NCBI GenBank assembly: GCA_964559455.1
Contig: CAZLHO010000003.1
Span: 42,963 to 106,962 of the forward strand
Source: an uncultured Fibrobacteraceae bacterium
GTDB taxonomy: Bacteria > Krumholzibacteriota > Krumholzibacteriia > LZORAL124-64-63
Length of the DNA: 64,000 nt
Direction: 5' to 3'
Shown: positions 19,970 to 24,535 of the stretch, piece by piece
Layout: each line of letters starts with the position of its first letter
Numbering within the stretch: position 1 is the stretch's first letter
Translations under genes and position numbers: made by a program
Notes under the pieces: generated by a model
What the model was told of the DNA's origin: nothing
What the model saw: only the letters and a program-made list of their open reading frames with translations
Databases searched by the model: none

Positions 19970-21034
19970 CTATTCGGTTACGGCGGCGACCGAGGTGTCG
20001 GGGGCCTCGGCCTCGACGGCTTCGGCGACCGTGTCGGTCGTTTCGCCGGGCGCGAAGGACGCGGCGAGGGCGACCAGGTCCGCGCGCGCGCCCGTGTCGG
20101 CCTCGGCCAGCGGCGCCAGGCGCTCCAGGCTGTCGCCGGCGAGCGCGTGGCCCGCATCGGCGGCCAGGGCGTAGGCCTCGGCGGCGTCGCGCAGGTGGCC
20201 GGTGCGCTCCAGCGCCACGCCCAGGTTGTTGCGGATGCGGCCCTGGTCGGCGGCGAGTTGAGCGGCCCGGGCCAGCGGCGCCAGGGCGTCGGCGAAGCGC
20301 TCGGCCTCGATATGCAGCAGGCCGAGGTTGTTCAGGGCCCAGACGTCGTCGTCGTCGCGGCGCAGCACCTGCTCGTAGGCGTCGACGGCCTCGTCGCCGC
20401 GGCCCAGGTTGTGGTAGACGCGGCCCAGCACCCGCCAGGCCTCGACCGACTCGGGGTCGCTGTCGAGCGCGGCCTCGACCAGGGGCAGGGCGTCGGCGGG
20501 ACGCCGCTGGTCGAGCAGCACCCGGGCCAGGTTGACGCGGCTCTTCTGGTGGTCGGGCATGATCTCGAGCGCGCGGCCGAAAGCGTCCTCGGCGTCCTCG
20601 AGCGCACCCTGCTTCCACAGCGCCAGGCCGAGCATGTACGGACCCCAGGCGTTGCCGGGCTTGCGGTCGGCGTAGGCGGCGAAGAGGCGGGCGGCCTCGG
20701 AGTGGTCGCCGGCGAAGTAGGCGGCCTCGCCATCGGCGTAGAGCATGTGGTCGGGCACGAAGGGGCCGATGGCCTCGGGCTCTTCCGCGGCCTCGGCGAC
20801 GACAACGGCGTCGTCGTCGACGGGCGCGGCCTCGGGCTCGGGCTGCGGCTCGGCCAGGGCGACGGTCGGGGCGGGGTCGGCCACGGAGGCGACCGTGGCC
20901 TCGCCGCCGCCGCCGGCCAGCTTCATGCCGATGAGGACGACGGCGGCCAGGGCGAAGACGAAGGCCAGGCCGGCCTCGGCGAACTTGATGTGCCGCTGGC
21001 GGCGGCTCGATCCGGTGGCTTCCTGCTGCTTCAT
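19970..21034 (-). CDS. TPR-repeat protein with N-terminal membrane anchor
   Basis: 354 aa. TM helix LAFVFALAAVVLIGM. Multiple TPR-like units (AW.VLG.VYHNLG, ALNNLG). Confidence 0.8.
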   Translation of the reverse strand: MKQQEATGSSRRQRHIKFAEAGLAFVFALAAVVLIGMKLAGGGGEATVASVADPAPTVALAEPQPEPEAAPVDDDAVVVAEAAEEPEAIGPFVPDHMLYADGEAAYFAGDHSEAARLFAAYADRKPGNAWGPYMLGLALWKQGALEDAEDAFGRALEIMPDHQKSRVNLARVLLDQRRPADALPLVEAALDSDPESVEAWRVLGRVYHNLGRGDEAVDAYEQVLRRDDDDVWALNNLGLLHIEAERFADALAPLARAAQLAADQGRIRNNLGVALERTGHLRDAAEAYALAADAGHALAGDSLERLAPLAEADTGARADLVALAASFAPGETTDTVAEAVEAEAPDTSVAAVTE

Positions 21035-21103
21035 GGCGAGCTCCTTTCGCTCGTGGGTCGTCGGGGCCGGAGCCCCGGGGTGGACGGTCGTTGCCCCAGG
21101 AAG

Positions 21104-22670: not shown

Positions 22671-24535
22671 GGTCGGGGCTCCTCGGCTGCGGCGCCGTCC
22701 GCCGCGACGTCCGCGGCGGGGAAGCTCAGGGTGAAGGTCGCGCCGCGGCCCGGCGCGGAGGCGACGTCGATGCGGCCGCCCCAGTCGGCGACCAGCCGGC
22801 GGACGACGGCCAGGCCCAGGCCCGATCCCTCGTCGCGGGTGGTGAAGAAGGGCTCGAAGATGCGCGCGCGCACGGCCTCGTCCATGCCGCGGCCGTCGTC
22901 GCGGACCTCGAGCACGACCTCGGGCCCGTCGTCGCCGTCGGCGGCCCGGGTGGCCACCACGACCCGGCCGCCGTCCGCGGGCAGGCTGTCGAGCCCGTTG
23001 CGCACGAGGTTCTGCACCACCCGGCGCAGCCCGACGGGATCGGCCCGCAGCCGGGGCGGGTCGGCGGCCAGATCCAGGGCGATGCGGTCGGCCGCGGGAT
23101 CGAGTTCGCGGGTGGCCGCGCGCACTTCCGCGTTCAGGTCGCAGGGTCGCGCCGCCGCGCGCGGCGACAGGCGGGCGTAGCTGTCGGCCAGCTCCTCGAG
23201 ATAGGACAGGCCCGATTCCAGCGTCCCCTCGCGTTCGGCGAAGACCGCGGGCAGGGCCGCCGGCTCGTCGCGGGCGACCTGGGCCAGGTGGCGCACCACG
23301 TTGCGGATCGGGGTGAAGCCGTTGCGGATGTCGTGGTTCACCTGACGCGCCAGGTCGCCGCGCGTGGCGCGACGCTCGGCCTCGCGCAGGCGCAGGACGC
23401 CGGCGCGCAGCCGCTCGGCCATCGTGTCCAGCAGGCGGGCCAGCGTGCCCACCTCGCCGCCGACGGCCGCCGCCTCGTCGAAGCCGCCGTCCAGCCGGTC
23501 CAGGTCCAGGGCCTCGGCCCGCCGGGCCAGCGAGCGCAGCGGACGGCTCAGGCGGCCCGAGAGCCAGGCCGCCAGCACCAGGGTCCCCGCCGCGGTCGCA
23601 GCGAAGAGCGCCAGCAGCCAGGCGTCGAGGTCGCGGCGCATGCGCAGCAGCGGCGCGCGGGGGTGGGTCAGCAGCAGGCGGGCCGGGATCAGGCCGGGCG
23701 GCGCGGGCCGGGGGTCGGCGGTCCGGCTGACGAAGCGGCCGACCGGGTGAGGGAAGTCCAGGGCGCGGACCAGGAAGTCGCCGGCGGGCAGGGCCAGCTC
23801 GGGCTGGTCCAGCCGGTCGCGGCCCGCGGACTGCAGGCGCTCGGCCAGTTCGGGATCGGTCGAGAGGGCGCCGCCGTGGTAGACGAGGGTCACGGCGACA
23901 TCGCGGTCGCCGGCGAGCCGGGACAGGAAGTCCCCATCCACGTCCACGCCGCCGATCAGGTACAGGCGCCGCCCGCCCGCGAACAGCGAGTCGACCTGCG
24001 CCAGCACCAGCCCGTCGCCGAAGGTCACCAGACCCGCGCCGCCGGGCGCGCCGGCCAGGGTGGCGCGCAGGTCCCGGTCGCTTTCGCCTGCGGCCGAGGG
24101 ATCGTCGCCCGCGGCCAGCACCCTGCCTTCCGCATTCAGCACGCGCATGACGTCCAGGCCGGTCAACCGCTGCGCCTGCTCGGCGAAATCCAGCAGGTAG
24201 GGATCGAACTCCCGCATCCCCGCGGCCGATAGGGCGAAGGCGTTGTCCGCGGCCGCTGCCAGGCGCAGCGAGGCCAGCCGCTGCGTCAGGTCCAGCCGCC
24301 TGGCGGCCAGGTTCTCCTGGACCACGGCGTTCAGCGAGGCGATGCGGGTCTCGTAGGCGTCGGCCGTCCGGCGGGCCGTGGCGCCGCGCACCACCAGCCC
24401 GAGCAGGGCCAGGGGCAGCAGCACCAGCAGGGTCGAGGCGACGAGGATCTGGCGACGCAGAGTCACGACATGGTCCTTCCGTGGCCGGTTCTGCGGTTTC
24501 AACAACAGCTTAGCCTGCTCGGAGGCCCCGGTCAA
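22667..24535 (-). CDS. Sensor histidine kinase (2 TM + periplasmic domain + HAMP + HisKA + HATPase)
   Basis: H-box HDIRNGFTPI. G-box GSGLGLAVV. TM helix LVASTLLVLLPLALLGLVV. The annotated start is TTG at 24535; a GTG at 24466 (VTLRRQILVAS...) is an alternative start. Confidence 0.85.
   Translation of the reverse strand: MTGASEQAKLLLKPQNRPRKDHVVTLRRQILVASTLLVLLPLALLGLVVRGATARRTADAYETRIASLNAVVQENLAARRLDLTQRLASLRLAAAADNAFALSAAGMREFDPYLLDFAEQAQRLTGLDVMRVLNAEGRVLAAGDDPSAAGESDRDLRATLAGAPGGAGLVTFGDGLVLAQVDSLFAGGRRLYLIGGVDVDGDFLSRLAGDRDVAVTLVYHGGALSTDPELAERLQSAGRDRLDQPELALPAGDFLVRALDFPHPVGRFVSRTADPRPAPPGLIPARLLLTHPRAPLLRMRRDLDAWLLALFAATAAGTLVLAAWLSGRLSRPLRSLARRAEALDLDRLDGGFDEAAAVGGEVGTLARLLDTMAERLRAGVLRLREAERRATRGDLARQVNHDIRNGFTPIRNVVRHLAQVARDEPAALPAVFAEREGTLESGLSYLEELADSYARLSPRAAARPCDLNAEVRAATRELDPAADRIALDLAADPPRLRADPVGLRRVVQNLVRNGLDSLPADGGRVVVATRAADGDDGPEVVLEVRDDGRGMDEAVRARIFEPFFTTRDEGSGLGLAVVRRLVADWGGRIDVASAPGRGATFTLSFPAADVAADGAAAEEPRP

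What the first reader, a model, noticed from the sequence alone, without database searches (positions are those of the whole stretch)
19970..24535. Sensor kinase + sigma-54 response regulator directly upstream of a TPR gene with a UAS-IHF-sigma-54 promoter architecture
Seen: HK and RR (GAFTGA present) overlap by ATGA. Immediately 3' of the RR gene, reading on the minus strand, lie repeated ACACGT/GGACACGT motifs (21176..21256), then an IHF-consensus TATCAATTGGTTG (21158..21170), then TGGCCG-N5-TTGCG (21119..21104) with correctly spaced GG/GC. The TPR-protein ATG follows at 21034. Established: this is the canonical layout of enhancer-dependent sigma-54 promoters. Inference: the TPR membrane protein is probably the direct target of this two-component system. 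The HK/sigma-54-RR/TPR trio is reminiscent of the PrsK-PrsR-PrsT regulators of exosortase-type EPS systems, and a large EPS locus lies 14 kb away. However, the kinase has a two-TM periplasmic architecture unlike PrsK.
Basis: partly seen in the sequence, partly recalled or inferred. Interest (0 to 1): 0.55.

Follow-up and report, generated by a model that had tools for sequence, protein, structure and literature searches.

The report
Sigma-54 switch controlling a periplasmic TPR gene
A sensor kinase and its sigma-54 activator sit next to a gene for a periplasmic TPR protein, whose promoter has two activator-binding palindromes, a DNA-bending site and a sigma-54 promoter; the same arrangement is conserved across several poorly studied bacterial phyla, so it is a real but textbook-style switch with an uncharacterised output.

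Summary
HK (22667-24466/24535) and RR (21303-22670; REC, AAA+ with GAFTGA, HTH_8) overlap by ATGA. Between the RR and the TPR gene (19970-21034) lie two dyad sites GTGTCC-N4-GGACAC (21238-21253, 21214-21229), the only WATCAANNNNTTR match in the 64 kb (21158-21170), and TGGCCG-N5-TTGC (21105-21119).

Comparative genomics makes chance very unlikely.
- In 81 orthologous loci (Krumholzibacteriia, Gemmatimonadota, Eisenbacteria, Latescibacterota, Glassbacteria), 72 carry a -24/-12 element before the TPR gene; controls give 8-10%.
- 123 of 146 palindrome hits lie 60-220 bp upstream of that element, as pairs spaced 24-25 or 32-35 bp.
- In a motif-first metagenome scan, 88 of 97 contigs with a perfect pair at the wider spacing had the RR or TPR gene alongside.

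The TPR gene is therefore the dedicated sigma-54 target of this system.

PrsK/R/T membership fails: all three HMM scores are below cut-off. The EPS locus carries no activator site. The kinase sensor has a DctB-like double-PDC fold. An SBP_bac_5 gene precedes the HK in 54 of 60 relatives but not here.

I rate this a new member of a known kind. The TPR protein's function is unknown, and rpoN could not be checked.

The parts
22667..24535 (-). Sensor histidine kinase. The maximal ORF starts at 24535; the likely start is GTG at 24466 (599 aa). Architecture: TM1, a ~255-aa periplasmic double-PDC (dCache-like) domain, TM2, HAMP, dimerisation/phosphoacceptor region, HATPase_c.
   Evidence: Pfam HAMP and HATPase_c. 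Weak sCache_3_2 and CHASE4 hits on the sensor. AF2 model with pLDDT 79; best PDB fold matches are the DctB sensor, Tlp3 and PctA dCache domains. Gene callers give 599 aa.
21303..22670 (-). NtrC-family response regulator and bacterial enhancer-binding protein (REC, AAA+ sigma-54 interaction domain with GAFTGA, Fis-type HTH). Its start overlaps the HK stop (ATGA).
   Evidence: GAFTGA is kept in 129/135 orthologues. The HTH segment LGLADHASLLKIMRR is >=90% conserved. The closest solved relatives are NtrX, NtrC1 and NtrC4.
21238..21253 (.). Distal enhancer (UAS) dyad GTGTCCAATCAAACAC (minus-strand reading). Its centre lies about 152 bp upstream of the predicted transcription start.
   Evidence: Homologous dyads occur in 69/72 orthologous promoters. 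The half-site bases are invariant in the alignment of close relatives.
21214..21229 (.). Proximal enhancer (UAS) dyad GTGTCCCGTCAGACAC. It lies 24 bp centre-to-centre from the distal site and about 128 bp upstream of the predicted start.
21175..21188 (.). Extra palindrome GTGTAC-GT-GTACAC. The half-sites resemble the UAS but the spacing is N2, and it is not conserved in relatives. Its role is doubtful.
21158..21170 (+). IHF-consensus core TATCAATTGGTTG inside an A+T-rich stretch (GC about 0.40 against 0.69 for the window), between the UAS and the promoter. It is the presumed DNA-bending site.
   Evidence: It is the only match in the window, with 0.07 expected. GC dip. Orthologues have a conserved TAA...CAA-N4-TTA element and 48% GC here against a 63% locus mean; 63% match the IHF core with <=2 mismatches, against 10% of random windows.
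21104..21119 (-). Sigma-54-type promoter TGGCCG-N5-TTGCG (GG at -25/-24, GC at -13/-12). The predicted transcription start is near 21093, giving a 5'UTR of about 59 nt.
   Evidence: Conserved in 72/81 orthologous loci against 8-10% in controls; family consensus TGG[CT]C-N6-TTGC[CG]. No sigma-70-like promoter was found on this strand.
21041..21048 (-). Ribosome-binding site GAAAGGAG, 6 nt before the ATG. It is conserved in close relatives.
19970..21034 (-). Target gene: a 354-aa protein with a basic N-terminus, one TM anchor, an acidic linker, a periplasmic superhelix of about 6.5 TPR repeats, and a conserved C-terminal motif VDLAALAxxF.
   Evidence: Pfam TPR families. 34-sequence alignment. 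AF2 model with pLDDT 84.8 matching generic TPR superhelices. Among 72 orthologous loci, my regex classification finds a lipobox in 29 (mostly Gemmatimonadota-labelled), the TM-anchor motif in 25, and neither in 18, so the TPR domain is extracytoplasmic.
19902..19945 (-). Strong stem-loop just after the TPR stop codon (-36.7 kcal/mol for the 93-nt stretch folded, z = -3.0). It is a possible terminator or 3' stabiliser separating the TPR gene from gdh (18475-19761).
   Evidence: The consensus terminator scan did not call it.

Best explanation
This is a dedicated, enhancer-dependent (sigma-54) switch.

Proposed mechanism, with each step's basis:
1. The membrane kinase senses a periplasmic cue through a DctB-like double-PDC domain (the fold is shown; the ligand is unknown). 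In most relatives it probably works with a co-encoded family-5 solute-binding protein. That gene is absent from this locus.
2. The kinase phosphorylates the NtrC-family regulator (inferred from domain content and the translationally coupled genes).
3. The phosphorylated regulator assembles on two tandem dyads, GTGTCC-N4-GGACAC, 24 bp apart and roughly 130-150 bp upstream of the start. The sites and their conservation are shown. Binding by this particular regulator is inferred from co-occurrence, geometry, and the equally invariant HTH.
4. An A+T-rich IHF-consensus site bends the DNA (consensus and conservation are shown; the protein is inferred).
5. The AAA+ ring remodels sigma-54 holoenzyme at TGGCCG-N5-TTGC, so that transcription starts near 21093 (inferred).
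6. The product is a single, usually monocistronic gene for a membrane-anchored periplasmic TPR scaffold.

This gene is the only conserved site-bearing target found near the system in any lineage, and the protein sits in the same compartment as the kinase's sensor domain. The most likely role is therefore an envelope-associated protein-binding adaptor made only on demand. It may also feed back on the sensor, as ZraP does for ZraSR. That last step is speculation.
For: Domains and motifs of the HK, RR and TPR protein.

Promoter elements in the window:
- The two dyads are the only matches in 64 kb.
- There is a single IHF-core match, with 0.07 expected.
- The -24/-12 element has canonical spacing.
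- No sigma-70-like promoter lies on that strand.

Conservation across relatives:
- HK-RR-TPR synteny holds in nearly all of 80 genome loci from at least five candidate or recognised phyla.
- The -24/-12 element is present in 72/81 loci, against 8-10% in controls.
- 123 of 146 dyad hits in 816 kb fall 60-220 bp upstream of the -24 GG. Pairs are spaced 24-25 or 32-35 bp, one helical turn apart.
- The proximal site is centred at about -83, -94 or -106 from the GG, in steps of roughly 11 bp.
- Close relatives show invariant half-site and GG/TTGC bases within otherwise divergent spacers.
- The UAS and promoter stay with the TPR gene when 1.2-3.7 kb of unrelated genes separate it from the RR.
- A motif-first metagenome scan found the RR or TPR gene next to 88 of 97 perfect pairs with a 16-19 bp gap.
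- An RR-first look-up in contigs whose RR is labelled Vicinamibacterales, or is a close homologue of it, again found the dyad pair and a -24/-12 element in front of a TPR gene.
- GAFTGA is kept in 129/135 RR orthologues and the HTH is >=90% conserved, matching the invariant DNA motif.

Other points:
- No dyad lies upstream of the HK.
- Genes downstream of the TPR gene are not conserved and are often convergent.
Against: - No experiment exists: no transcription start, no binding data, and no proof that sigma-54 is encoded in this genome. rpoN is not in the 64-kb window.
- The -24 hexamer is TGGCCG rather than TGGCAC. A proteobacterial-style matrix that I wrote from memory scores the window's site no better than background (5.5 bits; 44% of null windows score as high), and only 22% of the orthologous sites exceed the null 95th percentile.
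- IHF proper is best documented in Proteobacteria. Here the bend could be intrinsic or made by another HU-family protein.
- The regulon outside the fetched loci is unknown, so 'dedicated' rests on local DNA and on a scan that required two perfect dyads.
- Six-bp-stem palindromes could in principle also act as RNA hairpins; the simple terminator scan flagged one of them.
- The function of the TPR protein is not indicated by any specific homology.
Confidence: 0.85

Rival explanations
1. The trio is a PrsK/PrsR/PrsT-type system that controls exosortase/PEP-CTERM proteins and the EPS locus at about 35-62 kb.
For: - The three-part composition is the same: a kinase, a sigma-54 RR and a TPR protein that is a lipoprotein in many relatives (PMC1569441).
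- PrsR and PrsT are among the better NCBIfam hits.
- The best NCBIfam hits for many EPS-locus genes are XrtA/PEP-CTERM-associated families.
Against: - All three scores are far below the curated cut-offs: 83/300, 365/503 and 73/312.
- The PrsK match covers only the catalytic domain, and the sensor is a 2-TM double-PDC domain.
- PrsT is about 900 aa; this protein is 354 aa.
- The Prs enhancer motif (containing TTTACA) and its targets (PEP-CTERM genes) differ (PMC1569441), and prsT transcription appeared unaffected by rpoN1 disruption in Aquincola (PMC9850573).
- No dyad occurs anywhere in the EPS locus, and no exosortase was detected.
- All EPS-locus hits are below cut-off.
- The module is not EPS-linked in other genomes.
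Confidence: 0.04
2. It is a nitrogen-control system (NtrY/NtrX- or NtrB/NtrC-like) whose real output is the glutamate dehydrogenase gene downstream, with the TPR gene as a passenger.
For: - JGI/KEGG label many RR orthologues 'NtrX'.
- The closest solved full-length structure is NtrX.
- gdh follows the TPR gene here and in the nearest relatives.
Against: - The NtrX, NtrC and AtoC models all score below cut-off: 355/600, 374/559 and 390/714.
- The kinase has a periplasmic double-PDC sensor.
- gdh adjacency is confined to one subclade (10 of 81 loci; in 8 of them gdh lies on the same strand downstream of the TPR gene), while the TPR target is universal.
- A strong hairpin and a 208-bp spacer separate the TPR gene from gdh.
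- The dyad is unlike the NtrC site (from my own knowledge: TGCACC-N5-GGTGCA).
Confidence: 0.05
3. The palindromes and the GG/GC element are not an enhancer-promoter pair. On this view the dyads are terminator hairpins of the HK-RR operon or sites for another regulator, and the TPR gene is read from a different promoter or by read-through.
For: - One dyad is flagged as terminator-like by the simple scan.
- In the window, TGGC-N7-TTGC alone is not rarer than chance.
Against: - The dyads stay with the TPR gene, not with the RR stop, when the two genes are separated.
- What is conserved is base identity, not merely pairing; there is no compensatory variation, which points to protein recognition.
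- Fixed helical phasing relative to a conserved -24/-12 element has no explanation under a terminator model.
- The -24/-12 element is enriched about 9-fold over controls.
Confidence: 0.05
4. The regulatory mechanism is the same, but the TPR protein is a pure effector (for example an envelope assembly, secretion or adhesion adaptor) with no feedback on the kinase.
For: - It is a generic TPR scaffold; the weak best hits are MamA, PrsT, PilW, Tgl and BatC.
- Sigma-54 regulons are biased toward cell-exterior functions (PMC3162934).
Against: Nothing argues directly against it. A sole conserved target that is tightly linked to its sensor across phyla is also what feedback modulators such as ZraP look like. 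No client protein is encoded nearby.
Confidence: 0.45

Closest known systems
DctB/DctD-dctA of rhizobia (sigma-54 two-component system)
   Same: Shared features are a two-TM kinase with a periplasmic double-PDC sensor (best fold matches are DctB) and an NtrC-family RR with GAFTGA. From my own knowledge, DctD also uses tandem dyad UAS sites about 100-150 bp upstream of a -24/-12 promoter of an adjacent single target gene.
   Different: There is no sequence-level family assignment. The enhancer motif differs. The target here is a periplasmic TPR scaffold, not a transporter. Most relatives add an SBP_bac_5 gene.
ZraS/ZraR-ZraP envelope stress system of enterobacteria
   Same: A sigma-54-dependent two-component system whose principal target is a neighbouring gene for a periplasmic protein. 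From my own knowledge, ZraP feeds back on the system.
   Different: ZraS and ZraR score far below cut-off: 105/479 and 306/760 bits. ZraP is a small metal-binding chaperone, not a TPR protein. Feedback has not been shown here.
PrsK/PrsR/PrsT (PEP-CTERM regulatory system, Haft et al. 2006, PMC1569441)
   Same: A trio of kinase, sigma-54 RR and TPR (lipo)protein, often clustered. Its enhancer lies an average of 63 nt upstream of the -24/-12 motif, in front of single-gene operons.
   Different: All three HMMs score below cut-off. The kinase architecture, TPR length (354 against about 900 aa), enhancer motif and targets (PEP-CTERM genes) all differ. Its enhancer DNA motif and the PrsK/R/T trio were found only in Proteobacteria. 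Transcription of prsT appeared unaffected by rpoN1 disruption (PMC9850573).
NtrY/NtrX
   Same: Automatic (KEGG/JGI) label of many RR orthologues. NtrX is the closest solved full-length structure.
   Different: The NtrX model scores 355 against a cut-off of 600. GAFTGA is conserved here. The sensor is double-PDC rather than the NtrY architecture. Nitrogen genes are not part of the conserved module.
Kinases that use a periplasmic binding protein (LuxP-LuxQ, TorT-TorS)
   Same: In 54/60 relatives a solute-binding-protein gene is co-transcribed with the kinase. From my own knowledge, LuxQ also has a tandem-PDC sensor.
   Different: The SBP is family 5 (peptide/nickel type), and the window itself lacks it. 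The interaction has not been tested.

Membership tests
Enhancer-dependent sigma-54 promoter (UAS - bend - -24/-12) | -24 GG and -12 GC with the canonical TGGCAC-N5-TTGC spacing, upstream of the gene and on its strand | tested here: met
   TGGCCGCTCCCTTGC at 21105-21119 on the minus strand. Conserved in 72/81 orthologous loci against 8-10% in controls.
Enhancer-dependent sigma-54 promoter (UAS - bend - -24/-12) | A cognate bEBP with an AAA+ sigma-54 interaction domain carrying GAFTGA, plus a DNA-binding domain | tested here: met
   PF00158 at E = 1.7e-64, HTH_8, and ERGAFTGA. GAFTGA is kept in 129/135 orthologues.
Enhancer-dependent sigma-54 promoter (UAS - bend - -24/-12) | Dyad-symmetric activator sites about 80-200 bp upstream of the promoter | tested here: met
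   Two GTGTCC-N4-GGACAC dyads centred 103.5 and 127.5 bp upstream of the -24 GG. The same holds in 69/72 orthologous promoters, with helical phasing.
Enhancer-dependent sigma-54 promoter (UAS - bend - -24/-12) | An IHF site or DNA bend between the UAS and the promoter | tested here: inconclusive
   A perfect WATCAANNNNTTR match, the only one in the window. The A+T-rich stretch and the CAA-N4-TTA element are conserved. Whether IHF exists or binds in this lineage could not be tested.
Enhancer-dependent sigma-54 promoter (UAS - bend - -24/-12) | rpoN present in the genome, with transcription dependent on it | not testable with these tools
   No rpoN among the annotated ORFs of the 64-kb window. 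The rest of the genome is not available. It is indirectly implied by conserved GAFTGA and -24/-12 elements.
PrsK/PrsR/PrsT (TIGR02916/02915/02917) | The kinase reaches the PrsK model cut-off (300 bits) with its multi-TM N-terminal domain | tested here: not met
   83.1 bits, covering the catalytic domain only (residues 437-606). The sensor is a 2-TM double-PDC domain.
PrsK/PrsR/PrsT (TIGR02916/02915/02917) | The RR reaches the PrsR cut-off (502.6 bits) | tested here: not met
   364.6 bits. The AtoC and NtrC models score equally or better, and also below their cut-offs.
PrsK/PrsR/PrsT (TIGR02916/02915/02917) | The TPR protein reaches the PrsT cut-off (312.2 bits; a lipoprotein of about 900 aa) | tested here: not met
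   73.5 bits over 180 residues, in a protein of 354 aa.
PrsK/PrsR/PrsT (TIGR02916/02915/02917) | Co-occurrence with exosortase (EpsH/XrtA) and with PEP-CTERM genes preceded by the Prs enhancer motif | tested here: inconclusive
   No exosortase hit among the window ORFs. The EPS genes hit XrtA-associated families only below cut-off. The activator dyad is absent from the EPS locus. The rest of the genome was not seen.
NtrY/NtrX and NtrB/NtrC | The RR reaches the NtrX (600) or NtrC (558.6) model cut-off | tested here: not met
   355.0 and 374.1 bits.
ZraS/ZraR | The kinase and RR reach the ZraS (479) and ZraR (760) cut-offs | tested here: not met
   104.9 and 305.7 bits.

The most novel reading that the evidence does not exclude
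The module (SBP_bac_5) - double-PDC kinase - sigma-54 activator -> periplasmic TPR protein may be a previously unrecognised envelope- or peptide-sensing circuit. It spans Gemmatimonadota, Krumholzibacteriia, Latescibacterota, Eisenbacteria and contigs labelled Vicinamibacterales (Acidobacteriota). On this reading its single dedicated output, the TPR protein, binds the sensor complex or its ligand and closes a feedback loop. That would make it a functional counterpart of Zra/Cpx-type stress systems in phyla where no such system is known.
Probability: 0.25. Interest if true: 0.6.

Novelty: new member of a known kind. Interest (0 to 1): 0.42.

Why it matters
- It gives a concrete, testable DNA-recognition motif (GTGTCC-N4-GGACAC, in pairs 24 or 34 bp apart) and a defined single target for a very large family of sigma-54 activators. 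There are more than 4,000 close homologues at E <= 1e-100.
- Databases currently mislabel these activators as AtoC or NtrX, and they occur in phyla with almost no genetics.
- It corrects a tempting mis-assignment to the Prs/exosortase system.
- The strict helical phasing and the two spacing classes, which track the TM-anchored and lipoprotein forms of the target, make this a clean natural data set for enhancer geometry.
- The biology of the output protein remains open.

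Tried and rejected
1. A sigma-54 matrix that I wrote from memory of the proteobacterial consensus discriminated poorly. Its top hits were often the codons for the RR motif DWHITRTA (GACTGGCACATCAC..GCAC). I replaced it with a spacing-anchored score restricted to DNA after the RR stop.
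2. An ORF-based search for a conserved gene upstream of the HK found nothing. tblastn with the SBP genes seen in L085, L208 and L209 then showed it in 54/60 loci, so the ORF heuristic had failed.
3. A fold search with the TPR model returned only generic TPR superhelices (designed consensus TPRs, OGT, APC/C), with no functional clue.
4. The profile search of 1.84 billion representatives is swamped by giant multi-TPR proteins. It shows only that the family has many 50%-identity clusters and gives no usable size.
5. Literature searches for the motif, and for sigma-54 in Krumholzibacteriota or Gemmatimonadetes, gave nothing specific.
6. Rfam and tRNA scans of the window were empty.
7. Motif-first hits with gaps of 8-15 bp turned out to be unrelated tandem-repeat arrays, apart from one Krumholzi-type locus.
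8. Autoregulation through the same dyad upstream of the HK is not supported.
9. The third palindrome at 21175-21188 was rejected as a conserved site.

Full report
**What is in the window**

The minus strand carries four genes in a row.
- A histidine kinase: maximal ORF 22667-24535, with a probable GTG start at 24466 giving the 599 aa that gene callers report.
- A response regulator at 21303-22670.
- A TPR protein at 19970-21034.
- After a 208-bp spacer, glutamate dehydrogenase at 18475-19761.

The kinase has HAMP and HATPase_c domains. The regulator has REC, Sigma54_activat, AAA_lid_14 and HTH_8 domains, with Walker A GESGTGKE and ERGAFTGA. The kinase stop and regulator start overlap as ATGA.

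The TPR protein has a basic N-terminus, one hydrophobic anchor, an acidic linker and TPR repeats. The window is 69.5% G+C. It comes from a metagenome-assembled genome whose relatives are labelled Candidatus Krumholzibacteriia or 'uncultured Fibrobacteraceae'.

**The observation**

Read on the minus strand, the 268-bp RR-TPR spacer contains the following elements.
- Two dyads, GTGTCCAATCAAACAC (21253->21238) and GTGTCCCGTCAGACAC (21229->21214).
- CAACCAATTGATA, which on the plus strand is TATCAATTGGTTG (21158-21170). It lies in a stretch of about 40% G+C.
- TGGCCGCTCCCTTGCG (21119->21104).
- GAAAGGAG, followed 6 nt later by the ATG at 21034.

Statistics within the window:
- The two dyads are the only matches (<=2 mismatches) to GTGTCC-N4-GGACAC in 64 kb.
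- The IHF core WATCAANNNNTTR matches once in the whole window, at this spot, with 0.07 expected.
- The loose pattern TGGC-N7-TTGC is not rare by itself (5 found, 2.1 expected).
- No sigma-70-like promoter lies on this strand.

The predicted start is near 21093.

**Comparative test**

The TPR protein defines a distinct family: about 330-420 aa, 40-50% identical, with invariant residues throughout and a conserved C-terminal VDLAALAxxF. A scan of one genome per species returned 80 loci. They come from Krumholzibacteriia, Gemmatimonadota, Eisenbacteria, Latescibacterota, Glassbacteria and unclassified MAGs.

tblastn shows HK-RR upstream of the TPR gene in nearly every locus with enough flank. Some Krumholzibacteria-type loci have 1.2-3.7 kb of unrelated genes inserted between the RR and the TPR gene.

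The cis-elements are conserved as follows.
- A spacing-anchored -24/-12 score finds an element in front of the TPR gene in 72/81 loci. The reverse strand gives 10% and random same-size windows 8%. At the stricter threshold the figures are 46% against 0.5-1%.
- The family consensus is TGG[CT]C-N6-TTGC[CG], with C rather than A at -22.
- Of 146 dyad matches in 816 kb of loci, 123 lie 60-220 bp upstream of the -24 GG. 69 of 72 promoters have at least one and 54 have two.
- Pair spacing is 24-25 bp or 32-35 bp, one helical turn apart.
- The proximal site is centred at about -83, -94 or -106 from the GG, in steps of roughly 11 bp.
- The 24-25 bp class goes with TM-anchored TPR proteins and the 32-35 bp class with lipoprotein forms.
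- Between the UAS and the promoter the DNA drops to 48% G+C against 63% for the loci. It carries a position-conserved TAA...CAA-N4-TTA.
- 63% of promoters match the IHF core with <=2 mismatches, against 10% of random windows.
- An alignment of the window with nine close relatives shows invariant dyad half-sites, GG, TTGC and the RBS within otherwise divergent sequence.

**Two independent cross-checks**

1. A motif-first scan of metagenome contigs looked for two perfect dyads 8-19 bp apart. It returned 120 contigs. Of the 97 with a 16-19 bp gap, 88 encode the RR and/or the TPR protein next to the motif. Most hits with gaps of 8-15 bp are unrelated tandem-repeat arrays.
2. An RR-first search found more than 4,000 homologues at E <= 1e-100, many labelled 'NtrX' or 'AtoC' by JGI. 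Three contigs were fetched through RR homologues, two of them of Vicinamibacterales type. Three more were fetched through TPR homologues. All six have the dyad(s) and a -24/-12 element directly in front of the TPR gene, including cases where another gene lies between the RR and the TPR gene.

Further points:
- GAFTGA is retained in 129/135 RR orthologues.
- The HTH segment LGLADHASLLKIMRR is >=90% conserved, matching the invariance of the DNA motif.
- The dyad does not occur upstream of the kinase gene.
- Genes downstream of the TPR gene are not conserved and are often convergent.

The conserved regulatory unit is thus the TPR gene alone.

**The proteins**

- Kinase sensor: the AF2 model of the N-terminal 330 residues (pLDDT 79) shows a long helix, an alpha/beta double-PDC region and a second long helix. 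The best PDB matches are the DctB sensor domains, followed by Tlp3, PctA and other dCache domains. Sequence hits to sCache_3_2 and CHASE4 are weak.
- Solute-binding protein: in 54 of 60 relatives with enough flank, an SBP_bac_5 gene ends at the kinase start. The window, its sister contig L210 and four others lack it.
- TPR protein: the model (pLDDT 84.8) is a generic TPR superhelix of about 6.5 repeats with no informative structural neighbour.
- TPR topology: of 72 orthologous loci, my regex classification finds a lipobox in 29 (mostly Gemmatimonadota-labelled), the TM-anchor motif in 25, and neither in 18. Together with the positive-inside N-terminus here, this places the TPR domain in the periplasm.
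- 3' end: a strong hairpin follows the TPR stop codon.

**Mechanism**

The best-supported reading is a classical enhancer-dependent switch. The steps run: periplasmic signal, then kinase, then phospho-RR oligomerising on the tandem dyads, then a DNA bend, then activation of sigma-54 holoenzyme at TGGCCG-N5-TTGC, then TPR mRNA.

What is shown: the domains, the elements, and their conservation, geometry and co-occurrence.

What is inferred: that this RR binds these dyads, that IHF or an analogue bends the DNA, that sigma-54 is present, and where transcription starts.

The role of the TPR protein is unknown. I favour an on-demand periplasmic adaptor, possibly feeding back on the sensor as ZraP does, but this is speculation.

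**Comparison with known systems**

- Prs: membership fails. The scores are PrsK 83/300, PrsR 365/503 and PrsT 73/312 bits. The Prs system has a different kinase architecture and a different enhancer motif, targets PEP-CTERM genes, and its enhancer DNA motif and the PrsK/R/T trio were found only in Proteobacteria (PMC1569441). Transcription of prsT appeared unaffected by rpoN1 disruption (PMC9850573).
- EPS locus: the locus at about 35-62 kb is real. It encodes GT4 glycosyltransferases, an Asn-synthase-like protein, a tyrosine kinase, a chain-length determinant, Poly_export, Wzy_C, a flippase, a FemAB-like protein and an ExeA-like ATPase. Its best NCBIfam hits are XrtA-associated families, but all are below cut-off. 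No exosortase was found and no dyad occurs there.
- NtrX, NtrC, AtoC and ZraR/ZraS: their models are also below cut-off.
- Functional resemblance: the system works most like DctB/DctD-dctA (sensor fold, tandem UAS, adjacent single target) and like ZraSR-ZraP (periplasmic-protein target).
- gdh: adjacency to gdh is limited to the window's subclade.

**Verdict**

This is a real, well-conserved sigma-54 regulatory module. Its type is textbook, and it is a new, unnamed member of that type. It comes with a newly defined enhancer motif and an uncharacterised periplasmic output. Interest is moderate.

rpoN could not be checked because only the 64-kb window is available, and none of its annotated ORFs is rpoN. 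Sigma-54 is reported to be nearly universal in diderm LPS bacteria (PMC3162934).

Noticed in passing
window 28779-30083 (-) and 31681-33453 (-); L210 407-1720: Genes for topoisomerase VI subunits A and B occur in this bacterial MAG, with an M32 carboxypeptidase gene between them. The A subunit, with the M32 gene upstream, is also seen in the part of the sister contig L210 that was fetched.
   Followed up: no
loci L014, L028, L029, L031, L048, L052, L056, L085, L208, L209 and others; absent from window 24536-27000: A family-5 solute-binding-protein gene (SBP_bac_5) ends at the kinase start in 54/60 orthologous loci. It is missing in the window and in its closest relative L210, where a divergent YceI gene lies upstream instead.
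   Followed up: partly
window about 35400-61600: A large Wzx/Wzy-type EPS locus. Its genes hit XrtA/PEP-CTERM-associated NCBIfam families best (pepcterm_ATPase 218/325, femAB 126/260, export 69/180, and others), all below cut-off. No exosortase was detected and there is no activator dyad.
   Followed up: partly
window 21175-21188: An extra palindrome, GTGTAC-GT-GTACAC, lies between the proximal UAS and the IHF-like site. Its half-sites resemble the UAS but are spaced N2 rather than N4, and it is not conserved in relatives.
   Followed up: partly
L091 928-967, L098 5729-5768, L143 6415-6454, L207 1264-1303, L117/L139/L154/L176/L193: Unrelated metagenome contigs carry tandem arrays (3-4 or more copies, period 24-27 bp) built on the same GTGTCC-N4-GGACAC core, with no RR or TPR gene nearby. 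Their nature is unknown.
   Followed up: no
72 orthologous loci (L001 and L005-L084): Two co-varying architecture classes exist. A TM-anchored TPR protein goes with 24-25 bp UAS spacing. A lipoprotein TPR protein goes with 32-35 bp spacing. The two spacings differ by one helical turn.
   Followed up: yes
window 18475-19761 (-), 16004-18328 (+), 14759-15979 (+): Glutamate dehydrogenase and a PPDK_N-domain gene lie between the TPR gene and a NYN-domain gene. In L085 the TPR gene is followed directly by convergent Hpt and NYN genes; in L086 the same Hpt-NYN pair lies about 8.6 kb downstream, after four other genes. This suggests an insertion in the window's subclade.
   Followed up: partly
window 62601-63779 (+): Cyclic dehypoxanthinyl futalosine synthase MqnC passes its curated cut-off (466 against 428 bits), which indicates the futalosine route to menaquinone.
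   Followed up: no
window 628-4700 (-): A cluster of Rnf/Nqr-type membrane complex genes (RnfA/E-like, FMN_bind, RnfD-like, RnfC-like).
   Followed up: no
window 14783-19492 (-), 24947-26920 (-), 58932-62183 (-): Very long ORFs with no family hits run antisense to, or overlap, real genes. They are artefacts of the 69.5% G+C content and should not be annotated.
   Followed up: partly
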